64,000 nucleotides of DNA from Clostridia bacterium (GTDB lineage: Bacteria > Bacillota > Clostridia > RGIG6154): assembly GCA_045648505.1 (NCBI GenBank), contig JAZROD010000032.1, positions 722-64,721 of the forward strand. The letters are read 5' to 3'. Each line of letters opens with the position of its first letter. The first letter of the stretch is position 1. Positions 4,338 through 34,115 of the stretch are shown in pieces. Both the position numbers and the translations under genes were made by a program. The notes below the pieces were generated by a model, which saw only the letters and a program-made list of their open reading frames with translations, had not been told where the DNA came from and ran no database searches.

Positions 4338-5114
4338 GTGAGATGCTTGGCTGATTACCATCTTACCAATTACGGGTGCAGAGCTTTTAAGAAAAATGAA
4401 GTCTGGCAGTTTAACAACGATAATGTAAACAGACTTCATTATGTTGTCAGCGGAAAAGGCTATTATATTTTAAACGGCGAAAAAATTTATTTCAAACCTG
4501 GGTGCATTTATATTATTCCACCGTTCTTTGATTACAACACAGGCTATGATAAAGATATCGGCTTTAAACATATGTATTTCGATTTCTTTTCTGCAAGGCT
4601 TTTTGGGTTTGAAGAACCGCTCTGCCTTGAAGCAAGTGAACATGAAAGCATTCAGGGTGTTCTGAATATGCTCACAAGCTTTTTTGCGGATTGTGACAGA
4701 GGTCTGTATGATAAAGAAAAGAAAAAGATACATATAACGAGAGCGTTCACTTTTTTAATGGAGCTTATTGATGATTGCTACAATATCCGCTATGTCGCAG
4801 ATGAAAGAATTGAAAAGATTTTAAGATATATCCACGAAAATTATGCAAATGATATTACGGTAGATGATATGGCAAATCATTTGTATTTAAACAAAAGCTA
4901 TTTTTCAAAAATGTTTATGGAAAAAGTAAAAATGTCCCCACACGAATATCTTATATACTATCGTGTTATAAGAGGAATTGAAATGATAAAAAAAGGGCAA
5001 AAGATTAGCGATGTGGCAGAAAAAGTAGGATATAAAAACGCAAATTCATTTTCAACTGCTGTGAGAAAATACACCGGAAGTTCTCCAAAAGCTAACAAAT
5101 TAAGCTTGTTTTAA
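4338..5114 (+). CDS. AraC-family transcriptional regulator (cupin sensor plus C-terminal HTH)
   Basis: C-terminal AraC HTH region (ITVDDMANHLYLNKSYFSKMF ... GYKNANSFSTAVRKYTGSSP). Non-ATG start; GTG 4338 or TTG 4347, uncertain. Confidence 0.85.
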   Translation: MRCLADYHLTNYGCRAFKKNEVWQFNNDNVNRLHYVVSGKGYYILNGEKIYFKPGCIYIIPPFFDYNTGYDKDIGFKHMYFDFFSARLFGFEEPLCLEASEHESIQGVLNMLTSFFADCDRGLYDKEKKKIHITRAFTFLMELIDDCYNIRYVADERIEKILRYIHENYANDITVDDMANHLYLNKSYFSKMFMEKVKMSPHEYLIYYRVIRGIEMIKKGQKISDVAEKVGYKNANSFSTAVRKYTGSSPKANKLSLF

Positions 5115-5212
5115 TAACTTTTTTGGATAAAAAGCGATAAATACCTATAGAAAATAATAAAGTAAAGTAATAAAATTTAAATATAAAATAAAATTCAGAA
5201 AGGATTTTTATT

Positions 5213-8212
5213 ATGATGAAAAAATTTATAGCAATTGTAATGTGTATTATGCTTGTTTGCAGTGTTATTACAACAGTATCTGCAGATGAAACAACAGAGT
5301 ACATAACTTTCGATTTAAGAGAGGCAGGTGCAAATGCACAGATATTCGGTACTCAGGCAACTGCTGAGGCAATAGCGCAGATTCAGTCGGCTATTCCAAC
5401 AGTGAGCGATACACCTGTAGAATATTATTCTGCATATCCAACAAAAAAGGTAGACTCTACTAATATACCTGGCATAAGAGTAGTTCAAGTTCTTAATAAA
5501 GATGCTTTTGACGCTCAAAAAACAGCAGATGGTCTTATTTATGATATGAATAATGAAATACCTTTTAAAATCTTAACTGACGAAAATGCATCAAACGGTA
5601 TTTTAATAGGTACATCTAATGGCAATGAGCAGGTTCTTACACTCAATGCTGAAAAAGAAATGAATATGTTATACATATATTATACAACAACACCATCAAG
5701 CAAAATAGCTAACATTACTATAACATACACAGATAACTCAACAGATAATAAGTCTTTTGAAATCAAAGGTGCTGAATGGAACGAAGCTAACATAACAACA
5801 GGCTACTGGGGTAAAAAGTTTAAGCTTTTCTACAATATAAACCATTCATTAGCTACAAATGACGACTCTGTAGCAGTATCTGCAGCTACAGCTGCAGCCG
5901 ATGCAGAGAGACATCCAAATATCGCTGCGATAGAGTTAAACAGCACAAAAAAAGTGAAAAGCATTGCATTTAAGCTTTCAGATGGTTGGATAACAGCAGC
6001 AATTATCGGTATAACAGGTAGAGCTGCAACAGCGGAAGAAATTGCATCAGGAGCAACAACAATGAATTTAGCAGCACTTAAAGCTAAATACGCAGATGCA
6101 TCAGCAGTTACAATGGCTAATTGCAATGATGTAAGTACTTTACTTGCTGAAATCAATGATGAATTTGTACCTGTTGAAGATGCAGAGTATGTAGCATCAA
6201 TCAGAGCAGCAGTTGAAGCCATTTTTGCACAGGTAGATGAAACTGTTGCAAAATATGATATATTAGAAATTTCTAAGAATGTTCCTTTAGCTGCAAATGT
6301 AGGGGATACAACCAAAGTTATAGGTATTCAGCATGAGTTTGATGATCCGGCATTAGATACCGACAATGGCAATGATCAGTATGCCTTCAATATAGCTGCA
6401 CTTAATTATAAGGCAGTTAAGGGTTATACATTCTCAAACGATAACATACCTTTCAAAATTGAAGCTGACAGTAACGGATACTACGGAAGAAAAATCACTG
6501 GTAAGGCTAATCCTGCAGCAGAACTTACAGGAACTTATGAATTAACTATTCCTGAAGGTAAGAAATATACTAAAATAAGCTTTGTTGCACCTGCTTCGGG
6601 TACAGAAACTCAGAACAGAGATGATGTTTCATATAAACTTGTTTATGACGATGGAACAGCAAATGGTAAAACGGTAATATATAATACTAGCCAAATTCAG
6701 TGGAATACAGTAGCAAGAGAAGAGAATAAGACTTCACTTGTAAATGATCCAAATGCTTCATATATCCTTTATGAAACAGATACTAATAACAGAAACAATA
6801 CATATAACTGGTTAACATACGATTATTCAGCAGGAAAATACCTTTCAGTTAATGATGCTTTCTTAAATACTTATGTACCTGTGTATAACTTACCTGTTGA
6901 CCCTACAAAAACTCTTAAAAAGGTTGTAATAACCTGTACACCAGTATGGCGTGCAAACACAATCCTTGCAGCAACAGCACATAAAGCTGTTCTTTCAGAT
7001 GTTATTGACACATTGGAAGTAACAGCTGAAACCTACAAAGATGTAAGTGTAATGATTGAAGAATTACCTGAAGGAGATTTAACACCTGCACAGGAAGAAA
7101 AATTAGAAGTCATCAAAAAGCAGATTAAATTCTATGTTCAGGATTATGTACCTTTCGAAATTCCTGAAAACGTATTTAATGGTAAAGTGTTTGGTACCGA
7201 TGTTGCCAAAGCAGATGTAAAACTTGAGGATTATATTTCTGTAAACGATACAGTAGGTGATAGTTGTATTCTCGACAAAGTTAAATGGGATGCTGACAAG
7301 AAAGAAGGCTTGATTTATTCAGCAAATGATATTCCATTTAATGTAAACACAGATAAAGGTTTGCTTTTCGGTAATCATTCACAAGAGATAGTTAGAATTG
7401 ACATCCCTGAAGGAAATTACGATTCTATAAGTGCATTGTTTGCATTTTCAAATGTAGATAGTGGTGCATTTAAAATGAGAGCAATATATGATGATGGAAA
7501 TGAAACAGTTGATTCAAACTGGGATCCTGCAAACTACGGGCATTGCAACGGAAACTTTGAAACACAGACTAAGACAGACAAGAAAGAAGCAGATTCATAT
7601 GTTGTAATTTCAGGTGGCGGTACATTGAGAGACGATAATGATCCTGACAGATTCACTACTTTTGGTGCAAGGTATTATTTCCCTGTTATGACTCTTGATA
7701 CAGATATAGAAAAAACACTTGTAGCAGTTGAATTCACAAATACAAGAAATAATGTAAACGGAGCAATTCTCGGTGTAACAGGTTCAAGAAATGATTCAAC
7801 TCATAAGACACTTACAAGAGTATTTAACTCACTTATGAATAGCTTTACAGATGCCGAACTTGAAGCTGCTCACAGCGCATATGTAAACTCATATGATACA
7901 GGTCTTTACACAAACAAAACTTACGGTTTAGAACCTATGGATGTAATTTATCTTAAACATAGTAACAACACTTTAAGCGGTAAGGTTATGTCTTATGTAA
8001 ATACAGATAATGAGTATACAGTTGTTGCATTGGTTTTAAATGCAGACGGTTCATTTGACAGAGTTGAAATAATGGGCAACGGCACAGCTAATTTAAGTGC
8101 TCACGATTTCAGTGAAACAATAGTACTTGAAGAGGGACAGAAAATCAATGTTCTTCTCTGGGAAAACTTTGCAACACTTAAACCTTATATGACAGCGAAA
8201 GTCGTAAAATAG
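5213..8212 (+). CDS. Secreted 999-aa protein A: signal peptide, three copies of an unassigned ~200-240 aa module, C-terminal W-motif module
   Basis: Signal peptide MMKKFIAIVMCIMLVCSVITTVSA. Module copies lie at about 5291-6033, 6258-6987 and 7144-7792. The C-terminal end reads VLLWENFATLKPY. Confidence 0.8.
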   Translation: MMKKFIAIVMCIMLVCSVITTVSADETTEYITFDLREAGANAQIFGTQATAEAIAQIQSAIPTVSDTPVEYYSAYPTKKVDSTNIPGIRVVQVLNKDAFDAQKTADGLIYDMNNEIPFKILTDENASNGILIGTSNGNEQVLTLNAEKEMNMLYIYYTTTPSSKIANITITYTDNSTDNKSFEIKGAEWNEANITTGYWGKKFKLFYNINHSLATNDDSVAVSAATAAADAERHPNIAAIELNSTKKVKSIAFKLSDGWITAAIIGITGRAATAEEIASGATTMNLAALKAKYADASAVTMANCNDVSTLLAEINDEFVPVEDAEYVASIRAAVEAIFAQVDETVAKYDILEISKNVPLAANVGDTTKVIGIQHEFDDPALDTDNGNDQYAFNIAALNYKAVKGYTFSNDNIPFKIEADSNGYYGRKITGKANPAAELTGTYELTIPEGKKYTKISFVAPASGTETQNRDDVSYKLVYDDGTANGKTVIYNTSQIQWNTVAREENKTSLVNDPNASYILYETDTNNRNNTYNWLTYDYSAGKYLSVNDAFLNTYVPVYNLPVDPTKTLKKVVITCTPVWRANTILAATAHKAVLSDVIDTLEVTAETYKDVSVMIEELPEGDLTPAQEEKLEVIKKQIKFYVQDYVPFEIPENVFNGKVFGTDVAKADVKLEDYISVNDTVGDSCILDKVKWDADKKEGLIYSANDIPFNVNTDKGLLFGNHSQEIVRIDIPEGNYDSISALFAFSNVDSGAFKMRAIYDDGNETVDSNWDPANYGHCNGNFETQTKTDKKEADSYVVISGGGTLRDDNDPDRFTTFGARYYFPVMTLDTDIEKTLVAVEFTNTRNNVNGAILGVTGSRNDSTHKTLTRVFNSLMNSFTDAELEAAHSAYVNSYDTGLYTNKTYGLEPMDVIYLKHSNNTLSGKVMSYVNTDNEYTVVALVLNADGSFDRVEIMGNGTANLSAHDFSETIVLEEGQKINVLLWENFATLKPYMTAKVVK

Positions 8213-8221: not shown

Positions 8222-8260
8222 AAAGCACGATTTTTGTTATAAAAAATCGTGCTTTTCATT
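8222..8260 (+). terminator. Rho-independent terminator/attenuator between proteins A and B
   Basis: Stem AAAGCACGATTTTT/AAAAATCGTGCTTT followed by a T-rich tail. Confidence 0.7.
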
Positions 8261-8277: not shown

Positions 8278-11200
8278 ATGAAAAAGATGCCATTGAGAAT
8301 TACAGCACTTTTGTTATGTGCATCTCTTATCTTTGCATTGTTTACTTGCGCAAGTGCTCAAGGTGCAACAGAGTATATTACTTTTGATTTAAGAGAAGCA
8401 GGGGCAAATGCGCAGATTTTCGGAACTCAGGCAACAGCCGAGGCGATAGCAACTGCACAGACAGGTGTTTTAACAACAGATAATACAACTGCGGGCTATT
8501 CTTCATATCCATCTAAACAGTTGGATATTGACAGTGGAAGAGGTATAAGAATAGTTCAGGTACTTAATAAAGAAGCTTTTGATGCAAAAAAAGATGTTAA
8601 TGGTCTTATCTATGATAAAACAGGAACAATACCTTTTAAAATCTTAACAGATGAAAATGCATCAAACGGTATTTTAATAGGTACATCTAACGGTAATGAG
8701 CAGGTACTTACACTTAATGCAGAAAAAGAAATGAGTAAGTTGTATATCTATTATACAACCACATCAAATACTACACCTAATATTACCGTAACATATGCAG
8801 ATAACTCAACAGATATTAAGCCTTTTGGGATAAAAGGTGCTGAATGGAACGAAGCTAATATAACAACAGGTTACTGGGGACAAAAGTTTAAACTTTTCTA
8901 CAATATAAACCATTCGTTATCAGATTCAATGTCAATTGCTACAGCTGCTGCTGATGCAGACAGACATCCAAATATTGCGGTTATAGATTTAAACAGTACA
9001 AAGAAAGTGAAAAGTCTTTCATTTAAGCTTTCTGATGGTTGGAGAACTACTGCGGTTATCGGTATAACAGGTCAGGTTGCAACATCAGAAGAAATTAATG
9101 CTTATTACAGAGTACAGATTGATGAATTATTAGCTCAGCTTCCTGCAGATGCAGAAAATATTGATGATACAAATTATATAGCATACGGCAGTATTGTTGA
9201 ACAAATTGAAGCTATAAATGAAGGCAAAAATATACTTTCTGAACAGGAAATGGAGTTTATTGCGTCTATCAAAGAAGCAATCAATGATGTTTTAAATTCT
9301 TATTCACCATATATCACAGTTGATTTTTCACAAAGCTTTAATGCAAAGATATTTGCAGATGGTGGCAGTGCTATAGCAGATTATGACAATCCTTTGATGT
9401 ATATCCCTGCTTATGCAAATGTTTCAGGCACATGGGTTCCTGCAACAAACAGAGCTCTTAACAGACCTGCTTTCAATGCTTTAAAATCAGGTGACGGTAA
9501 CATTTATTCAAACAAAGGAATTCCTTTTGCTGTTAATGTTACAGGCGGTCTTGCGTTTGGCGGAAGATCAAATCCTATGAATGATGAAATAATCAATTTA
9601 AACGGTGTATATGCAGATTCGCTTCACATTATGCTTCCTGCAACTAAAGGCTCAGACGAAAACAGAACATACAAGGCAAAAGTTACTTATGCAGACAATA
9701 CAGAAGAAGAGTTTGCATTAAAATTCAAAGGAATTAATGTTTCTGCGCCAACAGATTGCGACTATCTCGCCGTGCAGAATATGTATATTTATAATGCAAA
9801 TGGTGATGTTGATGGAAATTTAAGATATCTTGAAGTTCTTGAACTTGATACAGACTTTTCAAAGCCTGTAAAGAGCATCACATTTTCAAACACAGACCAA
9901 TACGGCGGTTATGCAGTAATTGGTTTAACAGCAGAAATTGCAGATGAAAACAGTATCAAAGCTGACATCGAAGCAAAAATTGCAAGTGTTATTCAAAAAG
10001 AAATGGCTAAGGCTGAATATGAAATAAATGGTATATACGACCTTGTAAATCATTATGAAGCTAATTTTGAAAATGAAACATTAACAGGCAAAGCAGAATT
10101 TGACGCATATTATATGCAATATGTAAATTCGGTAGCAAGAGTAAACAGTGCAACAAGCTCAACTGACCTTTCAGAAACAAAGGCAGAAATTACTTTTGAA
10201 AACGAAATGAATTCAGCTGACCTTTTAGAAAAAGTAACTGTTACTTTGAATGGTGCCGAAACTAAAGATTACACAGCAACATATGCAAACAAGGTGTTAA
10301 AGATAAGCTTTAAAAACAATCTTGAATATGACAAAAGATATGTTATAACAATTCCAAGCGGAGTTGTAAGCAATGGCGGTATGCAGATGACAAACGCATA
10401 CACATACGCTTTTGATGCAGTTGAACCAATTGGATTTGAAACATATTCAGTTTCTTCAAACAATGTAGCAGTTAAACTTAAAAACTTTACATTGGGTGCA
10501 GGGCAGTCATATTTTATGACTGTTGCTCATATAGCATCAGATGGTTCAGTTAAAAAGAGTTATTTAGTAAAAGGAACTCTTGCGAAAGATGCATTCAAAG
10601 AAAAAACATTTAATTTTGAACCTCTTGCAACAGGGGAAAAATATGTAACATACACTCTTGATTCTGTTTCTGCTTTAAATTCAATTGTTAAAGAAAAGGG
10701 AACAGAACCTGCAGTAACAACAGATGGAACAATTAATGAAAAACTTCTGGTACATCCGGTAGACCTTGCGACTAACTCTGTTAAAATCGAAGGTGTAATG
10801 CCTGGTAAAGATGTTGTAAACATTGTTATTATAAATCCGGGAATGAATATTTCTGCAAACGGAGAATATACAGATGCAGTGCAGAATCAGATATCTGTAA
10901 AAACAGCGGAAAACGGATACTACTGTGCATCATTAAAGCTTAATAACCAGACATCAGGTGTGTTTAATGTTTATGCAGGAGATGAAAATGGTACATTCTT
11001 CTTTGCTTCAGATACAAATAAGAATGATATCATAAGAAATGTATTAAACAGCGGTAATGAAACATTGATAAAAGAGAATCTTGATGATATTTACCAGAAT
11101 TTTGGTCTTGACACATTTGTTCCTGTTACAGTTTCAGATGACGATGTTATGACATCAAAAATTATTGCAGGTGCACCATATAGCGAAAACGATTTCGGCA

Positions 11201-24244: not shown

Positions 24245-24276
24245 GTTGAACCTCTTATCAGATTATAAGAGGTTCA
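24245..24276 (+). terminator. Hairpin terminator after the HU-like gene
   Basis: Stem TTGAACCTCTTAT/ATAAGAGGTTCAA with a short T-run. Confidence 0.5.
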
Positions 24277-25590: not shown

Positions 25591-26121
25591 ATGGATACAT
25601 ATATAATACAGGGAATAGGTTTTGTTGGTATGACATTGGCGGTGATTTCTTTTCAGAAAAATACCAACAAAGGAATACTTTTGTTTCAAACCCTTACTTC
25701 GGCTGCTTTTGCCACTCAATTTATTTTGCTTGGTGCATATACAGGTGCGGTTATGAATATTTTGGGTGCTTTAAGAAATATTGTGTTTTACAACAGAAAA
25801 AGTAAGTGGGCGTGTAAAGGCACATTTTACGCAATAATGTTGCTTTATGTTGTTTTAGGAATTATTACATATCAGAATTACTTCAGTATTTTGTCCATAG
25901 TAGGTATGCTGTTGTCAACAATAGGATTCTGGATTGTAAATCCTAAATACACGAGAAGGTTATCTCTGATAAGCTCGCCTTGCTTTTTAGTATATAACTT
26001 TGCAAGCTCTTCTATTGCCGGAGTGCTGACAGAAGTGTTTGTTATTTCTTCTGTGTTAGTTGCAATGTATAAGTTTGATTATAAAAAATTAGGAGAAAAA
26101 AATGAAAAAGATACTATTTGA
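25591..26121 (+). CDS. YgjV-family inner membrane protein
   Basis: 176 aa, about 5-6 TM segments. The opening IQGIGFVGMTLAVISFQKNTNKGILLFQ...FILLGAYTGAVMN is typical of Imp-YgjV proteins. RBS AGGAGG. Confidence 0.65.
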   Translation: MDTYIIQGIGFVGMTLAVISFQKNTNKGILLFQTLTSAAFATQFILLGAYTGAVMNILGALRNIVFYNRKSKWACKGTFYAIMLLYVVLGIITYQNYFSILSIVGMLLSTIGFWIVNPKYTRRLSLISSPCFLVYNFASSSIAGVLTEVFVISSVLVAMYKFDYKKLGEKNEKDTI

Positions 26122-26995: not shown

Positions 26996-29900
26996 GAAAA
27001 TTTATCTGTAGCCTTATACTCATATTGACTTTAATTCCAGGAATAATTAAAGCTACGCCAATTGATACTGTTACATATTACTATGTTGACGGAGCAAACG
27101 GCAATGACAGTAACAACGGTAAAACCGTTACAAGCGCATTCAAAACCATAAAGAAAGCAAAAGATACTGTCAGAACAATTAATAAAGGTATGAATGGCGA
27201 TATAGTTGTTTATATAAAAGGCGGAACTTACTATCTTGGAGAAGAAAATGGTTCTTTAGTATTTAACCATGACGATTCCGGATATAACGGACATAAGGTT
27301 ATGTATGCAAACTATAACGGAGAAAAGGTTTCTATTGTCGGAGGTAAAAGAATTACTGGCTGGACAAAAGATTCAGGTAATATCTATAAGGCGTATGTAG
27401 GAACAAACTTAAAATTTTATGAGTTGTTTGAGAATAATACACGCTCTGTTATGGCAAGAACTCCTAATGAGGGTTATTTCCAAATTGAAGCGCCTGTAAG
27501 CGGAAATCAAACACAGTTTCACTTTAAATCCGGTGATTTTGTAAGAAACACAAGTGATGATTATGCTGATTTGCAGGTGTCTGTTTTAACCGGAATAGAC
27601 TATGGCACAAAAGTTATACCGGTTTCCTCAATTGACTGGAATAACAGAATTTTATCTTTATCTTACAGTATGAATGAAAATCTTACTGCAGGTAAGAGAT
27701 ATTTTTTAAGAGGTGCAAAATCTCTCCTTGATAATCCGGGAGAATTTTATCTGGATGAGTCAACAGGATATTTGTATTATTATCCAAGAGAGTTTCCGAT
27801 TGAAAATCAGACTATTGTTATACCTACTATGTTAACTGCAATAAATCTGTCAGGTAACAGCAATAAGGATTTAGTTGAAAATCTTGAGTTCAGAGGACTT
27901 GATATTTCAGTTTCTAACTTCTCTAAGGCTTATGCTGATGGAGTTGGAAATGTAAGGTATGGTCTTGTTTCATTTACAAATGCCGCAAATAACACTTTTA
28001 TAGATTGTATAATCAGGAATTCGGGATATAGCGGTGTAACAATGAATACATATACACAGTACAATAAAATTATTGATTGTACTATAGAAAATACCGGTCA
28101 TCATGGTATATACCTTATTGGAGAAGGTTTGGGGCTTGGAAATTATTCAAGTCCGGCAGAGTCATATCATAATAAATATAATGTTATATCCGGAAACAAA
28201 ATTTCAAACACAGGTATAAATCTTGATGATGGCTCAGGTATAAGCATTTCTCAAAGTGGTGACAATGAGATTTCGTATAACCAAATCAGTAACACAACTC
28301 GTTCAGGTATAAATCTTATGGGAAGAACATACTCAATGTTCAAAGACCAGACATATTACGGTGTTAAGGTTACATACGAAAATCACTGGGATTTTCTTCA
28401 TACAAGAAACAATGTTATAAAATTCAATGATATTTCAAATGCATTGACAAATACTCAGGATGGTGGCGGAATTTACTCATGGGGCACAGGCAAAGGAAAT
28501 GTTTTTGATAACAACCGTATTCATGATTTTACATCACCCATAAGTGGCGGAGAAACCTTCGGAATATATTTTGATGATTATTCAGATTACAACATTGCAA
28601 AAAACAATATTATTTACGGTGTAGGTGAGGGTTCTGGCGGAACATCTTGTCCTGTGTACATAAAAGGTGTTTATAATGTTTTTACAAATAATATTATTGC
28701 AGATAACAAGGCAAAGACAACTCACGACATAATTTTCAGAGCTTACGGTGGAGAGCCAAATCATCACGCTACAGTAACAAAAAATATAATTTACAAAGAA
28801 GGCGGTCAGCATTACTACTACTTTTATGACTGGAGTGGTGATAAGGTTGAGCAGTCTGATTACAATACTTTTTACCATCCATCAGGTAGCGACGGCGTTA
28901 AATTAAACGGTGCAAAAAACTGGGATTACTGGAAAACCGTGAACAATGGTATGTATGATAAAAATTCTATTATTGCCGACCCTTTATTTAAAGACAGAGC
29001 AAATCACGATTACACAGTATTGGAAGGTTCACCTGCACTAAACAGAGGCTTTGTAAATATTAATCAGCGAGAAATAGGAATATTTAAAAATGCAGAAAAA
29101 ATTATTCAGGCTGAAAATTATGACAATATGATGGGTGTTTCTACAAGCGGAAATCTGTTAAATCTGTGTGATAATAACGATTGGGCATACTACAAAAATA
29201 TAGATTTTGGCAGCGGTGTTCATACATTTTATGCTAAACTTTCAACAGATGAGCAGTTTAACGGAGGTACTGTAGAATTAAGACTTGACAGTAAAACAGG
29301 ACCGCTTGTGGGAAGTTTGGTAATTAGCAAGACTACTGAACAAATAGTAAAAACAACCGTAACAGGTGTTTCAGGAAAGCACGATTTGTACTTGGTGTTT
29401 AAAGGCAATACAGTTTGCAATCTGGATTGGTTTAACTTTGCAACAGTATATGTTTCTGATGCGTTAGAAGCTTTAAATTCAGCAAGTACAGATGATATGG
29501 AAGAAATTATTTTAAATAGCGAAGGCTATCTGGGATTAGTGCTTGATAGCTACAAAACTTTATCGCCTGATGAAAAAAATATTGTTCATACGACATTAAA
29601 AGAGCAAAAGTATACTACGGCTGAAGCAGTACAAGAAGCATTTAATCAGGTAATAGCCAGTATTAAGCCTGCATCAGTACCTGTTATTGTTAAACATCCT
29701 GAAAGTCTTACCAGAAACATAGGAGAGTCTGCAACCTTTTCGGTAATTGCAACAATCAACGGCAATGGGACATTGTCATATCAGTGGCAGAAGTCTACTG
29801 ACAAAGGTAATACATGGACAGATATAGACGGTGCGACATCCTCAAGCTATACAATAGCTGAAATGAGTCAAAGCGACAATTTAACAAGGTATAGATGTGT

Positions 29901-31035
29901 TGTGACAAACAGTGTAAACGATACGAAGGAAACAGTGATTTCAAATACTGCTGTTCTCAGTTTTAACACAAGCGAAGCATATCTTTTAACTGTTAAGAAT
30001 TACATAAAGAATGAAACTTTTGAACAGATTCCTGAAGGAACAACTGTAAATGCAAACAACGGAAAGACCAATTATAATGCATCTGCAACAAACCCTTTGT
30101 GGATGACAACATGGGGAAATCCCGGAACAAACAATGTTCAGAAAATAATAGCACTTGACGGTTCAAAAGTTCTTGAAACATACAGAAATTCAGGAAATAA
30201 TAACCTGGTTACATTATATGACAGTACGGCAACTCCTTATGCTGACAGGCCTATAACGACAGACAATATCGTTATTTCTTTCAGGTTTAAATGTGACAGT
30301 GCAGGCTCCGGTTCAACATCAGGACGATTCAGACTTATGATTAACGGCACAACACCTGCTACCAATTATCTGGCACAATATGTTAACAGTGCAGATACAG
30401 GACCACACTCTAACAGAGTAAGCATACTTAATGGTTTGGTTTATACACAGGCTCTTGCCCGTGACCAGTGGCATCATATACAGATTCATATTAATACAGA
30501 AAATGAACATGACAAAAAGCTTGTTGCTGTTTATGCTGACGATGTTTTAGTACCTGATTCTGTTAATAAATCCATACCTGACACATTCACAGGATTGACT
30601 AAATTCAGCACAAATCCTAATCAGAAAATACAGTTGTTTACAGGTGATGGTGTGATACGAGTTTTTATAGATGATTTGATGATTTTTGAGCCAAATGCAC
30701 CTGTTTTTGCAACAAATCACAAATTAACATATAGTGACGGAACCGTTTTATCAGGTGTTCTAACCAAAGGACAGACTATAAAGGCATCAGCTCTTGTAAC
30801 TAACAATACTTATAAAGAGAAAAATGCGCGAATTATAATAGCTGCCTATAAAGATGAAAGTCTTACAAAGGCTGTTTCAAACGAAATTACACTTCAACCC
30901 GGGGATGAAAACATCCCAATCACTAAAGAATTGGTTATTACTGAAAATCTACAGGGTGCAGAGATTAGAACATTTGTATGGGAAAGCTTTTCAAGCTTAA
31001 AACCATTGACTGTGCCGATAAAATACCCGCAATAA
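26992..31035 (+). CDS. Secreted 1347-aa protein F: right-handed beta-helix core, CBM6-like module, Ig (I-set-like) module, LamG-like module, C-terminal W-motif module
   Basis: The GTG start overlaps the nucleoside hydrolase stop (GTGA), with RBS GGAGG. Signal peptide present. CBM6-like segment at 29101-29439 (IQAENYDNM...NLDWFNF). Ig-like segment at 29680-29965. The end reads TFVWESFSSLKPL. Confidence 0.8.
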   Translation: MRKFICSLILILTLIPGIIKATPIDTVTYYYVDGANGNDSNNGKTVTSAFKTIKKAKDTVRTINKGMNGDIVVYIKGGTYYLGEENGSLVFNHDDSGYNGHKVMYANYNGEKVSIVGGKRITGWTKDSGNIYKAYVGTNLKFYELFENNTRSVMARTPNEGYFQIEAPVSGNQTQFHFKSGDFVRNTSDDYADLQVSVLTGIDYGTKVIPVSSIDWNNRILSLSYSMNENLTAGKRYFLRGAKSLLDNPGEFYLDESTGYLYYYPREFPIENQTIVIPTMLTAINLSGNSNKDLVENLEFRGLDISVSNFSKAYADGVGNVRYGLVSFTNAANNTFIDCIIRNSGYSGVTMNTYTQYNKIIDCTIENTGHHGIYLIGEGLGLGNYSSPAESYHNKYNVISGNKISNTGINLDDGSGISISQSGDNEISYNQISNTTRSGINLMGRTYSMFKDQTYYGVKVTYENHWDFLHTRNNVIKFNDISNALTNTQDGGGIYSWGTGKGNVFDNNRIHDFTSPISGGETFGIYFDDYSDYNIAKNNIIYGVGEGSGGTSCPVYIKGVYNVFTNNIIADNKAKTTHDIIFRAYGGEPNHHATVTKNIIYKEGGQHYYYFYDWSGDKVEQSDYNTFYHPSGSDGVKLNGAKNWDYWKTVNNGMYDKNSIIADPLFKDRANHDYTVLEGSPALNRGFVNINQREIGIFKNAEKIIQAENYDNMMGVSTSGNLLNLCDNNDWAYYKNIDFGSGVHTFYAKLSTDEQFNGGTVELRLDSKTGPLVGSLVISKTTEQIVKTTVTGVSGKHDLYLVFKGNTVCNLDWFNFATVYVSDALEALNSASTDDMEEIILNSEGYLGLVLDSYKTLSPDEKNIVHTTLKEQKYTTAEAVQEAFNQVIASIKPASVPVIVKHPESLTRNIGESATFSVIATINGNGTLSYQWQKSTDKGNTWTDIDGATSSSYTIAEMSQSDNLTRYRCVVTNSVNDTKETVISNTAVLSFNTSEAYLLTVKNYIKNETFEQIPEGTTVNANNGKTNYNASATNPLWMTTWGNPGTNNVQKIIALDGSKVLETYRNSGNNNLVTLYDSTATPYADRPITTDNIVISFRFKCDSAGSGSTSGRFRLMINGTTPATNYLAQYVNSADTGPHSNRVSILNGLVYTQALARDQWHHIQIHINTENEHDKKLVAVYADDVLVPDSVNKSIPDTFTGLTKFSTNPNQKIQLFTGDGVIRVFIDDLMIFEPNAPVFATNHKLTYSDGTVLSGVLTKGQTIKASALVTNNTYKEKNARIIIAAYKDESLTKAVSNEITLQPGDENIPITKELVITENLQGAEIRTFVWESFSSLKPLTVPIKYPQ

Positions 31036-31055: not shown

Positions 31056-32441
31056 ATGTCAATTAACGAAAAATTTAATGGATGCTTGCGTAAAAGCTCA
31101 GTAAATCCACGATATTTCACAGATGACTCAGGTAAAGCAATTTATTTAACCGGTTCACACACCTGGGCAGTTATGCAGGATATATGGCTTGAGGGAAACC
31201 CACGGAAAAATATGGATTATGATGGTTTCCTTCAGACTATGAGCGAACTGGGACATAACTTTTTAAGATTTTGGCAGTGGGCTCAAACAAAAAACTGCCC
31301 TTGGAACGATATAAGTACTCTTTTTGACCCGATGCCTTATGAGAGAACAGGACCGGGAAATGCATTCGATGGATCACCTAAATTCAACTTAAATAAATGG
31401 AATGAAGAGTATTTTATAAGATTAAGAGAAAGAGTACAAAAAGCTTCAGAAAAAGGAATATATGTCTCTATTATGTTCTTTGAAGCATGGGGAATAAAGT
31501 ATTCTAATTATCATCCGGATCAGGACCCTTGGCTTTGTTATCCGATGAATCCATTGAATAATATAAATAATATTACCGATAATCCTGTTTTGGAAAACGG
31601 TCAGGCGTTGGACTTTTTCTCTCTGAACTGTCCTCAGCTTCTTGAACTTCAAAAGGAATTCATTAAAAAGGTTATAGATACTGTAAATGATTTTGACTGT
31701 GTCTTGTATGAAATCTGCAACGAAATTCCTAATCGCATTGAAGCAATGAAGTGGCAGGATCATCTTTGTGAATTTGTAAAAGAATATGAAAAATCAATGC
31801 CCAAACAGCATCCGGTAGGAATTACAGGAGAAGGCGGAGAGCAGGATATGAGTCAGCTGTACGATACTTGCGCAGACTGGATTTCAACCGGTAACGGAAG
31901 AATGTTTGAGTATCGCTACAATCCACCTGCATCCGACGGAGAAAAAATTATACTCAGCGACACCGACCATCTGTGGGGACATGGCGGTGATTACGTGTGG
32001 GTATGGAAGAGCTTTACCAGAGGAATAAACACTTTGTTTATGGACCCCTGGGAGCCACTTCCTGCAAGAGAAAAAGACTGGATTGTTAACGGAACTTCCA
32101 AGAACAGCAGATATTATTATCCGTATGACTTAATCAGAAGAAATCTTGGTTATGTGAGAAAGTTTGCAGAGAAAATGGACTTAAACACCTGCATACCTCA
32201 TAATGAATTATGTACTTCAACCTTTTGTATCGCCAATAAAGGAAAAGAATATTTGTTTCTTTTACCAGCCGGAGGCACAGAGGGGATTGACTTATGGGAA
32301 GCAGAAGGTGAATTTAAAGCACTGTGGTTTAAACCTGAAACAGGAGAAACTTTTGAAGAAAATAGCTTCAAAGGTGGCGATAAATACATGATAACATCAC
32401 CTTTTTCAGGAACTGCAGTTTTATACCTTTGGAAAGAATAG
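31056..32441 (+). CDS. Leaderless glycoside hydrolase, probable clan GH-A (beta/alpha)8 barrel, family unresolved
   Basis: 461 aa from ATG 31056 (RBS GAGAGGA). YEICNEIPN resembles the GH-A acid/base NE motif. The N-terminus VNPRYFTDDSGKAIYLTGSHTW resembles GH5/DUF4038-type openings. Confidence 0.5.
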   Translation: MSINEKFNGCLRKSSVNPRYFTDDSGKAIYLTGSHTWAVMQDIWLEGNPRKNMDYDGFLQTMSELGHNFLRFWQWAQTKNCPWNDISTLFDPMPYERTGPGNAFDGSPKFNLNKWNEEYFIRLRERVQKASEKGIYVSIMFFEAWGIKYSNYHPDQDPWLCYPMNPLNNINNITDNPVLENGQALDFFSLNCPQLLELQKEFIKKVIDTVNDFDCVLYEICNEIPNRIEAMKWQDHLCEFVKEYEKSMPKQHPVGITGEGGEQDMSQLYDTCADWISTGNGRMFEYRYNPPASDGEKIILSDTDHLWGHGGDYVWVWKSFTRGINTLFMDPWEPLPAREKDWIVNGTSKNSRYYYPYDLIRRNLGYVRKFAEKMDLNTCIPHNELCTSTFCIANKGKEYLFLLPAGGTEGIDLWEAEGEFKALWFKPETGETFEENSFKGGDKYMITSPFSGTAVLYLWKE

Positions 32442-32450
32442 GGGGATATT

Positions 32451-34115
32451 ATGGATATAAATTTAAGAAAAATACCTTTCAGCAGATTTGGTTCATACAT
32501 AGCAATAAAACAGGAAGAAACAAGCAATGAACTTTATATAACAACTATGCACGGCTTCTGGCAGGATGAAATGAAACTTCTTAAAATAATCCCAATTGAT
32601 GCCGATTGTAAAGTAAAAGCATATCCTTGGAAAATAGAAATCAGTTCAAAAAACGGTAATGCAGTAATCACATTAAATAAAAGCAATGGTGTTTTAATCC
32701 GTGGAAAAGGAACTGGTATAAAAATAGAAAGAGTATGCGAAGGTGTCATAAAAGAAAAAGAAGAAAGCAAAGTGTTGTTTTCTTTCTGGGACGACAGACT
32801 TAAAACAGCTCTTTGTTGTGCATCAGGGAATTTCGATACTGATTTACTTGAAACAAAATCAGATGAGTATAAAATGTTTGTTGCGGTTTCTGCCATAGAA
32901 AGCGAAAAACTGGATGTTCCTGAAAGCTTTAAGGATTTTGACGAAAATACTGTTAAAAATGAATATGAAGACTGGACTACACCCTTAATACCAAATTGCG
33001 AAAAGTATAAAGATACAGCAAAACTTGCGGCTTATATTTTGTGGAACTCAACTGTTTCTCCTTGCGGAAATATAACTTGTAATACAGTTCTTATGTCAAA
33101 AAACTGGATGCATTATGTGTGGGCGTGGGACCATTGCTTTAATGCTATTGCTCTTGCAAAGACATATCCTGATCTTGCCTGGAAACAGATTAAAGTGTTT
33201 TTTGACAATCAGCAGGAAAATGGAATGCTTCCTGATTTAATTTATCCCAATAATATGAATTTAGGAGAAACCAAGCCTCCAGTTCACGGTTGGTGTTTTG
33301 AAAAACTTTTGGATGCAGGAGTAAAGCTTGATAATACGGAACTAGAAGAGTTTTACCATAAACTTAAAAAGTGGACAAACTGGTGGTTTGAACTCAGAGA
33401 TGACGATAAAGATGGTATCTGCCAATACAACTTAAACAACGAGTCAGGTCACGACAATTCTACTGTTTTTGACGAAGGAAAACCTGTTGAAGTTCCTGAT
33501 TTAACAGCATATTTAATTTTGCAGATAAAGTGCCTTAAACGCATTGCAAATATGTTAAACCTTAAAGATGAAGAAAAAGAGTGGGAAGAAAAGCAAAATA
33601 ACCTCTTTAATAAATTTATGGTTCACTCATGGAAAAACAATGAGTTTGTTGCTTTAAAGTCAGACTCTCATAAAAAAGTAGAAACAAAATCAATTATCAA
33701 TCTTGTACCGATTGTATTGGGAGAGTTGTTGCCGAAAGATTGCTTTAAGAAACTTGTTGAAAAGCTTTCGGTTGAAGACGATTATTTGTCACCATTCGGC
33801 ATTGTAACAGAGGCGATGACGAGTGAAAAATACAATAAGCATGCAGACGATTGGAGAAATCAGCATGCTCCTGAAACTACATATTGGAGAGGTGCAGTAT
33901 GGGCGCCGGTTATATATTTGATTACTGATGGCTTAAAAAGAGGCGGAGAACTTTCGCTGGCAAAAGAAATTGCTCAAAGGTTTTGCAATATGGTTAATGG
34001 TCAGGATGGAATATTTGAAAATTACAACTCTGAAACAGGGGCAGGAGGCTGTGACCCTGCGTACACTTGGACCTGCAGTGTGTTTTTACAGTTAATAAAA
34101 GATTTTCTGATATAA
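32451..34115 (+). CDS. Leaderless (alpha/alpha)6-barrel glycoside hydrolase, GH63-like (MGH1-like)
   Basis: Motifs WMHYVWAWDHCFNAIALA, GMLPD, KPPVHGW, NNESGHDNS, WRGAVWAPVIYL. 554 aa. Confidence 0.65.
   Translation: MDINLRKIPFSRFGSYIAIKQEETSNELYITTMHGFWQDEMKLLKIIPIDADCKVKAYPWKIEISSKNGNAVITLNKSNGVLIRGKGTGIKIERVCEGVIKEKEESKVLFSFWDDRLKTALCCASGNFDTDLLETKSDEYKMFVAVSAIESEKLDVPESFKDFDENTVKNEYEDWTTPLIPNCEKYKDTAKLAAYILWNSTVSPCGNITCNTVLMSKNWMHYVWAWDHCFNAIALAKTYPDLAWKQIKVFFDNQQENGMLPDLIYPNNMNLGETKPPVHGWCFEKLLDAGVKLDNTELEEFYHKLKKWTNWWFELRDDDKDGICQYNLNNESGHDNSTVFDEGKPVEVPDLTAYLILQIKCLKRIANMLNLKDEEKEWEEKQNNLFNKFMVHSWKNNEFVALKSDSHKKVETKSIINLVPIVLGELLPKDCFKKLVEKLSVEDDYLSPFGIVTEAMTSEKYNKHADDWRNQHAPETTYWRGAVWAPVIYLITDGLKRGGELSLAKEIAQRFCNMVNGQDGIFENYNSETGAGGCDPAYTWTCSVFLQLIKDFLI

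What the first reader, a model, noticed from the sequence alone, without database searches (positions are those of the whole stretch)
4338..34115. 30-kb AraC-headed locus: six giant secreted beta-helix/SLH proteins with only cytoplasmic GHs and no recognisable importer or cohesin/dockerin
Seen in sequence:
- One AraC gene is followed by 14 same-strand genes. Junctions range from a 20-nt overlap to 98 nt (AraC to protein A). Hairpins lie in the A/B (8222-8260) and HU/GH140 (24245-24276) gaps.
- Six products (999, 1352, 931, 1363, 1255 and 1347 aa) carry signal peptides.
- D, E and F contain PbH1-like beta-helix rungs and a shared LD-x-PGE(W/F)Y-x-D...LYYYP segment.
- The four clear glycoside hydrolases (propeller-like, GH140/DUF4038, GH-A-like, GH63-like) all lack signal peptides.
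- No ABC, PTS or MFS transporter, no dockerin Ca-binding duplicate, no cohesin-like module and no LPXTG signal is present.

Established knowledge: GH140 was defined from the Bacteroides rhamnogalacturonan-II apiosidase. The right-handed beta-helix is the fold of pectate lyases, GH28 and GH141.

Inference: this is a surface-tethered depolymerisation apparatus for a complex (pectic, RG-II-like or other branched) glycan. It is organised unlike cellulosomes and unlike typical Firmicute polysaccharide loci, and about half of its coding capacity is unassigned.
Basis: partly seen in the sequence, partly recalled or inferred. Interest (0 to 1): 0.8.

Follow-up and report, generated by a model that had tools for sequence, protein, structure and literature searches.

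The report
Wall-anchored GH141 glycan-degrading locus, Clostridia
A gut Clostridia bacterium carries a real 30-kb sugar-regulated gene cluster that probably digests a plant-type polysaccharide at the cell surface with three GH141 enzymes; it uses two undescribed protein modules and has a small YgjV-type membrane protein as its only candidate importer.

Summary
The cluster is real and is bounded by strong hairpins at 4098-4140 and 34132-34163. The finding's description is only partly right.

**Corrections to the finding**
- AraC is followed by 13 genes, not 14.
- Only D, E and F are beta-helix proteins. They are GH141-like, and the BT1002 catalytic Asp pair is conserved in all three.
- Only B and C carry SLH triplets.
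- A is non-catalytic.

**New modules**
- X is a ~215-aa beta-sandwich, present 3x in A, 2x in B and 2x in D. It occurs in only 48 clusters out of 1.84 billion representatives.
- CT is a ~75-aa module at the extreme C-terminus of A, D and F. In relatives the same position holds SLH triplets or type-I dockerins.

**Importer.** "No recognisable importer" is overstated. A YgjV-family membrane protein (25591-26121) overlaps the nucleoside-hydrolase gene. It is conserved (63%) in a related metagenome locus that also lacks ABC, MFS and PTS genes.

**Substrate.** The RG-II reading is weak. Only GH140 and GH141 point to it, and F mirrors the C. thermocellum xylanase Xyn141E (GH141-CBM6-dockerin).

**Verdict.** This is a new variant of the Gram-positive pattern of surface depolymerisation, import and cytoplasmic glycosidases. 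Substrate, importer role and CT function are all inferred.

The parts
4098..4140 (.). Bidirectional terminator-like hairpin; upstream boundary of the locus
   Evidence: 20-bp stem, -27.7 kcal/mol, z -6.2
4249..4278 (+). Sigma-70-like promoter candidate upstream of AraC
   Evidence: 11 of 12 hexamer matches plus an extended -10 TG. This is a consensus match only.
4338..5114 (+). AraC-family regulator (weak cupin-type N-domain plus HTH)
   Evidence: HTH_AraC 1.5e-16 and HTH_18 2.2e-15. It is conserved directly upstream of A in L001 (50%) and L002 (74.5%).
5213..8212 (+). Protein A (999 aa): signal peptide, three X modules (aa 30-275, 355-592, 645-862; nt 5300-6037, 6275-6988, 7145-7798) and a CT module (aa 920-992; nt 7970-8188). 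No catalytic domain; putative secreted glycan-binding protein.
   Evidence: No Pfam, NCBIfam or PDB hit. Module boundaries come from a local iterated HMM. Only 3 homologues outside the window among 5.8 billion proteins.
8222..8260 (+). Hairpin followed by a U-rich tail between A and B; probable attenuator, terminator or mRNA stabiliser
   Evidence: -18.7 kcal/mol, z -5.2. A hairpin of different sequence occupies the same gap in L002.
8278..12336 (+). Protein B (1352 aa): signal peptide, two X modules (aa 33-271, 345-558; nt 8374-9090, 9310-9951), Big_5 (aa 619-712; nt 10132-10413), an unassigned ~440 aa, and 3 SLH (aa 1154-1348; nt 11737-12321). Wall-anchored and non-catalytic.
   Evidence: SLH 2.7e-37 in 3 stretches and Big_5 6e-09. 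X modules. The C-terminal half is 29% identical to a 571-aa SLH protein of the JGI locus.
12336..15131 (+). Protein C (931 aa): signal peptide, N-terminal SLH triplet (aa ~24-192; nt 12405-12911), then ~740 aa of small beta-domains. No enzyme fold; S-layer-like wall protein.
   Evidence: AF2 model has pLDDT 75. Foldseek matches SpaA-SLH 6cwh/7sv5 at TMt ~0.7 and nothing convincing for the rest. About 30 homologues, mostly with N-terminal SLH.
15148..16053 (+). Cytoplasmic 301-aa GH43-like (propeller-like) protein; family unresolved
   Evidence: Glyco_hydro_43 1.2e-06, below the Pfam cutoff, and GH130 0.016. Conserved at 80% in L024 and 41.5% in L049/L050.
16075..20166 (+). Protein D (1363 aa): signal peptide, two X modules (aa 30-240, 284-499; nt 16162-16794, 16924-17571), a GH141-like beta-helix (aa ~585-1181; nt 17827-19617; candidate catalytic D965 and D1016) and CT (aa 1291-1356; nt 19945-20142)
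   Evidence: Beta_helix 1.6e-08 and GH141_M 3.4e-05. Asp pair. Modules.
20187..23954 (+). Protein E (1255 aa): signal peptide, GH141-like beta-helix (aa ~26-720; nt 20262-22346; D495 and D538), an unassigned region, and a weak Cu_amine_oxidN1-like C-terminal domain (aa 1113-1172)
   Evidence: Beta_helix 4.4e-09, GH141_M 2e-04, and PDB hits 9rx2 and 5mqp. The L024 orthologue is 83% identical.
23965..24240 (+). HU-type DNA-binding protein (91 aa), conserved inside the locus
   Evidence: Bac_DNA_binding 4.1e-24. Orthologues occupy the same position in L024 (92%) and L025 (42%).
24245..24276 (+). Hairpin between HU and GH140
   Evidence: -18.2 kcal/mol, z -4.5. Nearly identical in L024.
24302..25579 (+). 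Cytoplasmic GH140-family (apiosidase-like) enzyme with a Collagen_bind_2 C-domain
   Evidence: Apiosidase 2.8e-115 and Collagen_bind_2 1.9e-28. No signal peptide.
25591..26121 (+). YgjV-family multi-pass membrane protein (176 aa). It is the only membrane protein of the locus and the candidate importer.
   Evidence: Imp-YgjV 3.9e-39. 5-7 hydrophobic segments. Overlaps the next gene by 20 nt. A 63% orthologue follows the DUF6298 enzyme in L049. Weak internal repeat between aa 7-60 and 100-153, hhalign E 5e-4.
26102..26995 (+). Cytoplasmic nucleoside-hydrolase-family (IUNH) protein
   Evidence: IU_nuc_hydro 1.5e-55. PDB ribohydrolases down to 1e-24. N-terminal DTDIGTDIDDA Asp cluster.
26992..31035 (+). 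Protein F (1347 aa): signal peptide, GH141-like beta-helix (aa ~26-700; nt 27067-29091; D490 and D528), CBM6 (aa 706-817; nt 29107-29442), an Ig domain (aa 897-973; nt 29680-29910), an unassigned region, and CT (aa 1258-1339; nt 30763-31008)
   Evidence: 9rx2_A 9.2e-42 over aa 39-699 and 5mqp 8.8e-12. CBM_6 2.8e-21. Asp pair. CT. 66% orthologue in L049/L050.
31056..32441 (+). Cytoplasmic 461-aa DUF6298 enzyme, a distant GH140-like, clan GH-A-like protein
   Evidence: DUF6298 2.6e-12, with weak Apiosidase and Collagen_bind_2 hits. The 78% orthologue of 461 aa in L049 supports the 31056 start.
32451..34115 (+). Cytoplasmic GH63-like / MGH1-like (alpha/alpha)6 glycosidase
   Evidence: MGH1-like_GH 1.4e-49 and Glyco_hydro_63 8.9e-11
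34132..34163 (.). Terminator-like hairpin; downstream boundary of the locus
   Evidence: 14-bp stem with flanking A and T runs; -14 kcal/mol. An opposite-strand tRNA-Asn follows at 34322-34397.

Best explanation
This is an AraC-controlled polysaccharide-utilisation locus of an uncultured gut Clostridia bacterium. It follows the Gram-positive pattern of depolymerising at the wall, importing small products and finishing in the cytoplasm.

SHOWN
- Three secreted GH141-family beta-helix proteins (D, E, F) keep the family's catalytic Asp pair. F also carries a CBM6.
- Two secreted non-catalytic proteins carry SLH triplets: B at its C-terminus and C at its N-terminus.
- A, B and D carry 3, 2 and 2 copies of X, a rare and undescribed ~215-aa beta-sandwich module.
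- A, D and F end in CT, a ~75-aa undescribed module.
- Five enzymes lack signal peptides: GH43-like, GH140, IUNH-like, DUF6298 (GH140-like) and GH63-like. Among them lies one YgjV-family membrane protein.

INFERRED
- X is a carbohydrate-binding module. A would then be an abundant secreted glycan binder, with an attenuator hairpin after its gene.
- B and C present the system on the wall.
- D, E and F cut a branched plant-type heteroglycan. Hemicellulose (xylan-like) is at least as likely as pectin or RG-II.
- YgjV imports the small products.
- The cytoplasmic glycosidases, including two GH140-type enzymes and a ribosidase-like enzyme, release monosaccharides.
For: - Domain content.
- GH141 assignment. 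The profile of D, E, F and their orthologues hits 9rx2 at 2.1e-37 and BT1002 (5mqp) at 3.2e-27. BT1002 D523/D564 (chain residues 528/569) align with invariant Asp residues: F D490/D528, E D495/D538, D D965/D1016 (residue identities from PMC12786026 and PMC5593877).
- F parallels Xyn141E, which is GH141-CBM6-DocI (PMC5593877).
- SLH. B has 3 Pfam repeats. The C model's N-terminus superposes on the SpaA-SLH trimer at TMt ~0.7.
- X module. It is defined and its model has pLDDT 87.6 and pTM 0.85. The fold is a beta-sandwich, with only weak CBM32/16/4 and lectin matches. Exhaustive HMMER finds 48 representatives in 1.84 billion. These co-occur with GH141/Beta_helix, CE2/GDSL, Big_5, SLH and dockerin.
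- Signal peptides are present on the six large proteins and absent from the five enzymes.
- Boundaries. Hairpins at 4098-4140 and 34132-34163, then an opposite-strand tRNA-Asn.
- Synteny. AraC-A-B-C-(GH43l)-D-E-HU-GH140 recurs in L001, L002, L024 and L025. A rearranged relative, L049/L050, holds GH141 enzymes, B-like and C-like SLH proteins, the F orthologue, GH43l, an MGH1-like GH, DUF6298 and YgjV.
- YgjV. It is the only membrane protein in both locus types. A YgjV homologue lies upstream of a same-strand run of sugar-catabolism genes and divergent from a DeoR regulator in L047. ygjV belongs to the predicted KdgR pectin-catabolism regulon of Dickeya (PMC6127512).
Against: - No enzyme activity, binding, localisation or expression data exist. 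The organism is uncultured.
- GH141_M scores (21.7-24.2 bits) fall below Pfam's gathering score of 27.
- YgjV has no demonstrated transport function anywhere. It shows no BLAST similarity to E. coli PnuC, and no weak Pfam hit to SWEET or PnuC models even at E<=10. The real importer could be encoded elsewhere in the genome.
- X's best structural match is AziU3/U2, a biosynthetic enzyme (TM 0.6). Matches to CBMs reach only TM ~0.3, so carbohydrate binding is not shown.
- A, D, E and F have no recognised anchor.
- The roles of the IUNH-like enzyme and of HU in a glycan locus are unexplained.
Confidence: 0.65

Rival explanations
1. One reading: a dedicated pectic or RG-II-type depolymerisation apparatus that truly lacks its own importer.
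For: - GH140 (founding activity: RG-II beta-D-apiosidase) scores 2.8e-115.
- There are three GH141-like enzymes, and the founding member BT1002 acts on RG-II (PMC12786026).
- A GH95 gene lies next to the L002 relative.
- ygjV belongs to the predicted KdgR pectin-catabolism regulon of Dickeya (PMC6127512).
Against: - The locus has no polysaccharide lyase, GH28, GH78/106, GH105, GH127, GH137-139 or GH142/143, and no pectin esterase.
- GH141 also includes a xylanase and fucanases (PMC5593877, PMC12786026).
- F shares the GH141-CBM6 architecture of the xylanase Xyn141E.
- F's CBM6 is closest to xylanase-associated CBM6s.
- The accessory genes vary between relatives: GDSL esterase plus GH3 in L025.
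- A conserved YgjV membrane protein is present.
Confidence: 0.12
2. The large proteins form a non-canonical, cellulosome-like surface complex. CT acts as a dockerin analogue that docks A, D and F onto the SLH-anchored B and/or C.
For: - CT always lies within ~10 residues of the C-terminus.
- In the X-module family, proteins that lack CT and are not fragmentary or unassigned at the C-terminus end in an SLH triplet (B, P0042, P0045, P0052) or a type-I dockerin (P0059, P0069).
- F matches Xyn141E with CT in the dockerin's place (PMC5593877).
- CT-bearing proteins co-occur with B-like and C-like SLH proteins in a second locus type that has no X modules.
- B and C hold ~440 and ~740 aa of unassigned beta-domains that could serve as receptors.
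Against: - The argument is purely positional and based on co-occurrence.
- CT may be just a terminal Ig/CARDB-like domain; one member has a weak CARDB hit at 8e-4.
- There is no Ca-binding motif, no repeated cohesin-like unit was detected, and no interaction prediction could be run.
- E lacks CT.
Confidence: 0.25
3. The system is not nutritional. It remodels the cell's own envelope, S-layer glycan, exopolysaccharide or biofilm matrix.
For: - B and C are SLH proteins, and C resembles S-layer proteins in layout.
- A HU-type gene is embedded in the locus.
- The surface proteins diverge fast: A-D are 52-62% identical in the closest relative, against 80-92% for neighbouring genes.
Against: - The regulator is an AraC type with a sugar-sensor-type domain.
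- CBM6 is present.
- Five cytoplasmic glycosidases and a membrane protein fit catabolism.
- X-family relatives carry dockerins and CE2/GDSL esterases, typical of plant cell-wall degraders.
- No glycosyltransferase, flippase or polymerase gene lies in the locus.
Confidence: 0.08

Closest known systems
Paenibacillus sp. JDR-2-type Gram-positive xylan system: an SLH-anchored multimodular GH10 XynA1, an ABC importer and intracellular glycosidases (PMC4765114)
   Same: Both depolymerise at the cell wall using SLH anchoring, use CBM-bearing secreted enzymes, and finish with signal-peptide-less glycosidases encoded nearby under a sugar-responsive regulator.
   Different: Here the secreted enzymes are GH141-like rather than GH10 and do not carry the SLH repeats themselves; these sit on two separate non-catalytic proteins. 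No ABC transporter is present and only a YgjV-family protein could import. Two undescribed modules, X and CT, are present.
GH141 family: BT1002 alpha-L-fucosidase (PDB 5MQP), C. thermocellum Xyn141E endo-xylanase, Wenyingzhuangia endo-fucanases (PMC5593877, PMC12786026)
   Same: They share the beta-helix with the GH141 insertion signature LDxxGEWYxD...YYYP and both catalytic Asp residues. F shares the GH141-CBM6-C-terminal-module layout of Xyn141E.
   Different: Sequence identity to the characterised members is low, and the closest solved relative is the uncharacterised 9rx2. D carries two N-terminal X modules. A dockerin is replaced by CT, or in E by a Cu_amine_oxidN1-like domain. Specificity is unknown.
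Clostridial cellulosomes (dockerin-cohesin assembly on SLH-anchored scaffoldins)
   Same: Both combine SLH-anchored non-catalytic proteins with a set of secreted enzymes that share a short extreme-C-terminal module. Some X-family homologues are true dockerin proteins.
   Different: No dockerin or cohesin sequence is present in the window, and no interaction has been shown.
Bacteroides thetaiotaomicron RG-II PULs (source of GH140 and GH141)
   Same: GH140 and GH141 family members co-occur.
   Different: There is no SusC/D and none of the ~20 other RG-II enzymes. GH140 here is cytoplasmic. The organism and envelope are Gram-positive.
E. coli / Dickeya YgjV (PF10688), an uncharacterised inner-membrane protein of the KdgR regulon
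   Same: Same Pfam family (3.9e-39) and the same genomic association with carbohydrate catabolism.
   Different: It is about 23% identical to E. coli YgjV. Here it is embedded in a polysaccharide locus and translationally coupled to a nucleoside-hydrolase-like gene.

Membership tests
GH141 glycoside hydrolases (D, E, F) | Right-handed beta-helix with the GH141 insertion domain, and sequence relationship to BT1002 and Xyn141E | tested here: met
   Beta_helix scores are above the cutoff. GH141_M scores of 21.7-24.2 bits are below the cutoff of 27. The profile of D, E, F and orthologues hits 5mqp at 3.2e-27 and 9rx2 at 2.1e-37. F alone hits 9rx2 at 9.2e-42 over aa 39-699.
GH141 glycoside hydrolases (D, E, F) | Catalytic Asp pair (BT1002 D523 and D564) | tested here: met
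   Both positions are invariant Asp in the alignment of D, E, F and four orthologues: F D490/D528, E D495/D538, D D965/D1016.
GH141 glycoside hydrolases (D, E, F) | Glycosidase activity and CAZy/dbCAN subfamily placement | not testable with these tools
   No dbCAN or CUPP tool was available, and no biochemistry exists.
GH140 (apiosidase-like) | Apiosidase-like (beta/alpha)8 catalytic domain plus a C-terminal Collagen_bind_2 beta-sandwich | tested here: met
   PF13204 at 2.8e-115 covering profile positions 1-319 of 320, and PF12904 at 1.9e-28. Catalytic residues and apiosidase activity were not tested.
SLH-anchored cell-wall protein | Three tandem SLH repeats forming the SCWP-binding trimer | tested here: met
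   B has 3 Pfam stretches (2.7e-37). C has 1 Pfam stretch, and its AF2 N-terminus matches the SpaA-SLH trimer at TMt ~0.7. A, D, E and F have no SLH, so the feature is not met for them.
Cellulosome component | Type-I/II dockerin (duplicated Ca-binding loop-helix) on the enzymes and cohesin modules on a scaffoldin | tested here: not met
   No window protein hits Dockerin_1 or a Cohesin model. Dockerins occur only in distant X-family homologues P0059 and P0069.
Gram-positive PUL (regulator + transporter + polysaccharide-degrading enzyme; definition recalled from Sheridan et al. 2016, not re-read here) | A carbohydrate transport system encoded in the locus | tested here: inconclusive
   There is no ABC, MFS or PTS gene. 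A YgjV-family membrane protein is present and conserved, but its transport function is unproven. The regulator and enzyme criteria are met.
Bacteroides-type RG-II utilisation system | Full complement of RG-II enzymes (PL1, GH28, GH78, GH95, GH105, GH106, GH127, GH137-143, CE) and SusC/D | tested here: not met
   Only GH140 and GH141 representatives were found.
SWEET/PnuC-type (3+1+3 TM) transporters, for YgjV | Two 3-TM bundles related by an internal repeat and linked by one TM helix, plus a fold match to SemiSWEET or PnuC | tested here: inconclusive
   Hydropathy allows ~7 segments. The halves aa 7-60 and 100-153 align in register with hhalign E 5e-4 but probability only 31%. There is no BLAST similarity to E. 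coli PnuC and no weak Pfam hit to MtN3 or PnuC models. My recollection that Pfam groups PF10688 with the MtN3-like clan was not verified.
Nucleoside hydrolase (IUNH) family | IU_nuc_hydro fold with the N-terminal Asp cluster | tested here: met
   PF01156 at 1.5e-55 over the full length. PDB ribohydrolases at 1e-24. The N-terminus reads DTDIGTDIDDA, a variant spacing. The substrate is untested.

The most novel reading that the evidence does not exclude
The locus encodes a previously unrecognised kind of Gram-positive surface glycan-degrading machine. In this reading, CT is a new dockerin-like assembly module that docks the binder A and the GH141 enzymes D and F onto the SLH-anchored proteins B and C. 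X is a new CBM family. A YgjV-family protein is the first example of this family acting as the dedicated importer of a polysaccharide-utilisation locus.
Probability: 0.2. Interest if true: 0.8.

Novelty: new variant of a known kind. Interest (0 to 1): 0.55.

Why it matters
Most work on gut glycan utilisation concerns Bacteroidota SusC/D PULs, or Firmicutes loci built around ABC transporters or cellulosomes. This locus, from an uncultured ruminant- or animal-gut Clostridia lineage, shows a third layout.

- GH141 enzymes are combined with separate SLH-anchored non-catalytic proteins.
- It contains a very rare repeated beta-sandwich module, X, which is a candidate new CBM family.
- It contains a C-terminal module, CT, in the slot normally held by dockerins or SLH repeats.
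- It has no classical transporter, only a YgjV-family membrane protein.

If the inferences hold, there would be three consequences.
- YgjV (PF10688), a widespread orphan family that includes E. coli YgjV, would gain a function.
- CAZy would gain a binding-module family.
- There would be a new way of assembling enzymes on Gram-positive walls.

GH141 has very few characterised members, so three divergent paralogues in one operon are also useful specificity probes.

Tried and rejected
- **A against curated libraries.** Pfam, NCBIfam and PDB sequence searches of A found nothing.
- **A family in the indexed protein database.** The search with A alone, and the search with the A-family profile, returned only 5-6 proteins. 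The profile search even missed known B orthologues, so I relied on the exhaustive search instead.
- **Locus in species representatives.** I looked for it in GTDB species representatives using A (no hits) and GH140 (best hit 52%, in Paenibacillus, with no synteny). The locus is absent from those genomes or was missed by the pattern scan.
- **Unassigned C-terminal and middle regions.** A Pfam scan at E<=1 gave nothing usable.
- **CT module.** The CT profile against PDB, and CT members against Pfam, gave no real hit apart from one weak CARDB match.
- **X model against viral structures.** Nothing exceeded TM 0.34. The phage-depolymerase idea was also rejected because no phage genes are present.
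- **YgjV.** There was no hit against PDB sequences, none against E. coli PnuC by BLAST, and none against Pfam at E<=10. The SWEET/PnuC relationship therefore stays a recollection.
- **Rfam over the whole window.** Only the four tRNAs were found, with no riboswitch or leader element.
- **Downstream oxidoreductase genes (34532-37737).** I considered them as part of the operon and rejected this. A terminator hairpin and an opposite-strand tRNA-Asn intervene, and the genes have no orthologues in L049/L050.
- **9rx2.** A literature search for this PDB entry found no paper.

Full report
**Anatomy and boundaries**

The + strand carries an uninterrupted run of 14 genes, in this order:

| Gene | Coordinates |
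|---|---|
| AraC | 4338-5114 |
| A | 5213-8212 |
| B | 8278-12336 |
| C | 12336-15131 |
| GH43-like | 15148-16053 |
| D | 16075-20166 |
| E | 20187-23954 |
| HU | 23965-24240 |
| GH140 | 24302-25579 |
| YgjV-family | 25591-26121 |
| nucleoside-hydrolase-like (IUNH) | 26102-26995 |
| F | 26992-31035 |
| DUF6298 / GH-A-like | 31056-32441 |
| GH63-like | 32451-34115 |

- Thirteen genes follow AraC, not fourteen.
- A 20-bp bidirectional hairpin lies at 4098-4140 (-27.7 kcal/mol, z -6.2). A terminator-like hairpin lies at 34132-34163. An opposite-strand tRNA-Asn follows at 34322-34397. Together these delimit the locus.
- The oxidoreductase genes downstream (34532-37737) therefore belong to another transcription unit.
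- The two internal hairpins named in the finding are real. The one at 8222-8260 folds at -18.7 kcal/mol (z -5.2) and has a U-rich tail. The one at 24245-24276 folds at -18.2 kcal/mol (z -4.5).
- A hairpin of different sequence occupies the A/B gap of the relative L002. This suggests a conserved attenuator or stabiliser after gene A.
- Rfam finds only the tRNAs.
- A housekeeping gene (TsaD) is 92-94% identical to uncultured Clostridia MAGs, one of them from water-deer colon.

**Secreted versus cytoplasmic products**

A-F all begin with Sec-type signal peptides, for example MKRIICLTLTILFLLSLSAYA/SN in C. The GH43-like, GH140, IUNH, DUF6298 and GH63-like products have no N-terminal hydrophobic segment. 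There is no LPXTG motif.

**The three beta-helix proteins are GH141-like enzymes**

- D, E and F hit Pfam Beta_helix above its cutoff. They hit GH141_M just below its cutoff.
- F matches the uncharacterised PDB entry 9rx2 at 9.2e-42 over aa 39-699, and BT1002 (5mqp) at 8.8e-12.
- A profile built from D, E, F and four orthologues hits 9rx2 at 2.1e-37 and 5mqp at 3.2e-27.
- In that alignment, 5mqp chain residues D528 and D569 lie 41 residues apart, in the contexts MYDVAGVY and LYTDEG. They correspond to the catalytic D523 and D564 of BT1002 (PMC12786026; Xyn141E D540/D577 in PMC5593877).
- These two positions fall on invariant Asp columns: F D490/D528, E D495/D538 and D D965/D1016.
It is exact in E and F and degenerate in D.
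- F continues with CBM6 (2.8e-21) and an Ig domain. This reproduces the layout of the C. thermocellum endo-xylanase Xyn141E, which is GH141-CBM6-dockerin (PMC5593877).

**SLH anchoring is confined to B and C**

- B ends in three SLH repeats (2.7e-37).
- C has one Pfam SLH hit. Its AF2 model (pLDDT 75) shows an N-terminal helical triplet that superposes on the SpaA-SLH trimer at TMt ~0.7. About 740 aa of small beta-domains follow, with no enzyme-like match.
- C belongs to a family of ~30 proteins of 850-1000 aa, mostly with N-terminal SLH.
- A, D, E and F have no SLH. The title's "six beta-helix/SLH proteins" is therefore inaccurate.

**Two undescribed modules**

*Module X*
- A and B share their N-terminal ~480 aa at 48% identity. 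B 345-562 matches D 30-244 at 47%.
- An iterated local HMM resolves this into a ~215-aa module, X. It is present three times in A, twice in B and twice in D.
- A has only three homologues outside the window among 5.8 billion proteins.
- An exhaustive HMMER search of 1.84 billion representatives with the family profile finds 48 proteins.
- In these, X co-occurs with Beta_helix/GH141_M (8 and 6 members), Big_5 (7), SLH (3), Dockerin_1 (3), CE2/GDSL esterases and a subtilase. This is the behaviour of an accessory binding module of carbohydrate-active enzymes.
- The AF2 model of B's second X is confident (pLDDT 87.6, pTM 0.85) and shows a beta-sandwich.
- Its best PDB match is AziU3/U2 (TM ~0.6, 13% identity, E 6e-4). 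CBM32, CBM16, CBM4 and lectin jelly-rolls reach only TM ~0.3. Viral structures give nothing.
- A CBM role is therefore an inference from context and not from fold.

*Module CT*
- A, D and F end in a ~75-aa module with the motif (V/I)xxF(V/L)W(D/E)...L(K)P.
- It lies within ~10 residues of the C-terminus in them and in most X-family proteins.
- X-family members without CT are either fragmentary or unassigned at the C-terminus, or end in an SLH triplet (B, P0042, P0045, P0052) or a type-I dockerin (P0059, P0069).
- CT has no Pfam or PDB relative. One member gives a weak CARDB hit.
- CT thus sits in the architectural slot of anchoring and assembly modules.

**Relatives and synteny**

- The core order AraC-A-B-C-(GH43-like)-D-E-HU-GH140 recurs in an NCBI MAG (L001), two ENA contigs (L002, L024) and a Logan contig (L025). 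In L025 the accessory genes after HU are a GDSL esterase and a GH3 instead of GH140.
- HU is conserved in position: 92% identical in L024 and 42% in L025.
- In the closest relative the X-bearing and SLH proteins are far more diverged than their neighbours. A is 53%, B 57%, C 62% and D 52.5% identical, against E 83%, GH43-like 80% and HU 92%.
- A JGI metagenome locus (L049/L050) is a rearranged cousin. In order it holds:
  - a GH141-like protein;
  - a 571-aa SLH protein, 29% identical to B's C-terminal half;
  - a C-like protein (24%);
  - a 1035-aa CT protein;
  - the F orthologue (66%, with CT);
  - the GH43-like protein (41.5%);
  - two GFO/IDH/MocA oxidoreductases and a Zn-ADH;
  - an MGH1-like GH;
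  - DUF6298 (78%);
  - YgjV (63%);
  - another GH141-like gene.
- That locus has no X modules and, again, no ABC, MFS or PTS genes.
- GTDB species representatives lack the locus.

**The importer question**

- The locus has no ABC, PTS or MFS transporter.
- It does encode a YgjV-family protein (PF10688, 3.9e-39) with 5-7 hydrophobic segments. Its gene overlaps the IUNH-like gene by 20 nt.
- It is the only membrane protein in both locus types.
- In another Clostridia MAG a YgjV homologue lies divergent from a DeoR regulator gene. It sits upstream of a same-strand run holding a MatE, a TIM-like gene, a SIS-domain gene and a FGGY kinase.
- ygjV belongs to the predicted KdgR pectin-catabolism regulon of Dickeya (PMC6127512).
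- The two halves of the protein align in register. The evidence is weak: hhalign E 5e-4, probability 31%.
- There is no detectable similarity to PnuC and no weak Pfam hit to SWEET or PnuC models.
- My recollection that Pfam groups this family with SWEET and PnuC is untested here.
- YgjV is the best candidate importer (about 50%). An importer encoded elsewhere in the genome cannot be excluded.

**Substrate**

- GH140 (2.8e-115) and GH141 are the only links to RG-II. None of the lyases, GH28, rhamnosidases, GH105, GH127 or GH137-143 partners is present.
- Three observations make a hemicellulosic heteroglycan at least as likely:
  - GH141 includes a xylanase and fucanases.
  - F mirrors Xyn141E, and its CBM6 is closest to xylanase-associated CBM6s.
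  - X-family relatives carry CE2/GDSL esterases and dockerins.
- The cytoplasmic set is GH140, a second GH140-like DUF6298, a GH43-like protein, a GH63/MGH1-like enzyme and an IUNH-like ribosidase. It suggests import of small, possibly furanoside-containing oligosaccharides.
- GH140 is again followed directly by an IUNH-like gene in an unrelated MAG, L029.

**Verdict**

- The interpretation, a surface-tethered depolymerisation apparatus, is partly supported.
  - The RG-II emphasis and "no importer" are weak.
  - The contrast with cellulosomes is less sharp than claimed, because CT occupies the dockerin slot.
- The locus is a new variant of the known Gram-positive scheme of wall-anchored depolymerisation, import and cytoplasmic hydrolysis (cf. 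Paenibacillus JDR-2, PMC4765114).
- It is notable for two undescribed modules, a dedicated pair of SLH proteins, an embedded HU gene, and a YgjV-family protein in place of a classical transporter.
- All functional steps beyond family assignment are inferred.

Noticed in passing
window 23965-24240; L024 15515-15790; L025 15532-15882: An HU-type DNA-binding protein gene is embedded between E and the cytoplasmic enzymes. It keeps this position in two related loci (92% and 42% identity). A nucleoid protein conserved inside a glycan locus is unexplained.
   Followed up: partly
window 5213-20166 compared with L002 and L024: Divergence within the locus is strongly uneven in the closest relative. A is 53%, B 57%, C 62% and D 52.5% identical, whereas E is 83%, GH43-like 80%, HU 92% and AraC 74.5%. 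This suggests fast evolution or exchange of the X-bearing and SLH surface proteins.
   Followed up: partly
L029 10001-12225: In an unrelated uncultured-bacterium MAG, a GH140 homologue (46%) is followed 9 nt later by an IUNH-like gene (27%). The GH140 and nucleoside-hydrolase-like families may be functionally linked, possibly both acting on pentofuranosides.
   Followed up: no
window 34532-37737; L049 5835-10867: A Fe-ADH_2 / SDR / GFO_IDH_MocA gene trio lies just beyond the tRNA-Asn boundary. The related JGI locus has two GFO_IDH_MocA genes and a Zn-ADH inside the locus. These are not orthologous, but they hint at an oxidoreductive step for an unusual sugar.
   Followed up: partly
window 42202-47329 (- strand): A separate cluster holds a LacI regulator, a short (661-aa) PFL-like glycyl-radical enzyme, a GH1 glycosidase and a radical-SAM activase. 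Pairing a GH1 with a glycyl-radical enzyme is unusual.
   Followed up: no
window 51855-56759 (- strand): A 1634-aa protein has an N-terminal SLH hit and no other Pfam domain. It may be the main S-layer or another large wall protein. It contains no X or CT module.
   Followed up: partly
window 1219-1474 and 34322-34397: A tRNA-Gly/Arg/His cluster lies upstream, and a lone opposite-strand tRNA-Asn lies immediately after the locus terminator. The locus sits between tRNA genes, but its GC content (~0.35) is uniform and no integrase was seen.
   Followed up: no
L025 7062-11822; L001 15178 onward: In two relatives the gene after C encodes a 1586-aa protein. It has an E-like GH141 domain first and a single X module after it (aa 819-1034), then CT. 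X therefore shuffles position between paralogues.
   Followed up: partly
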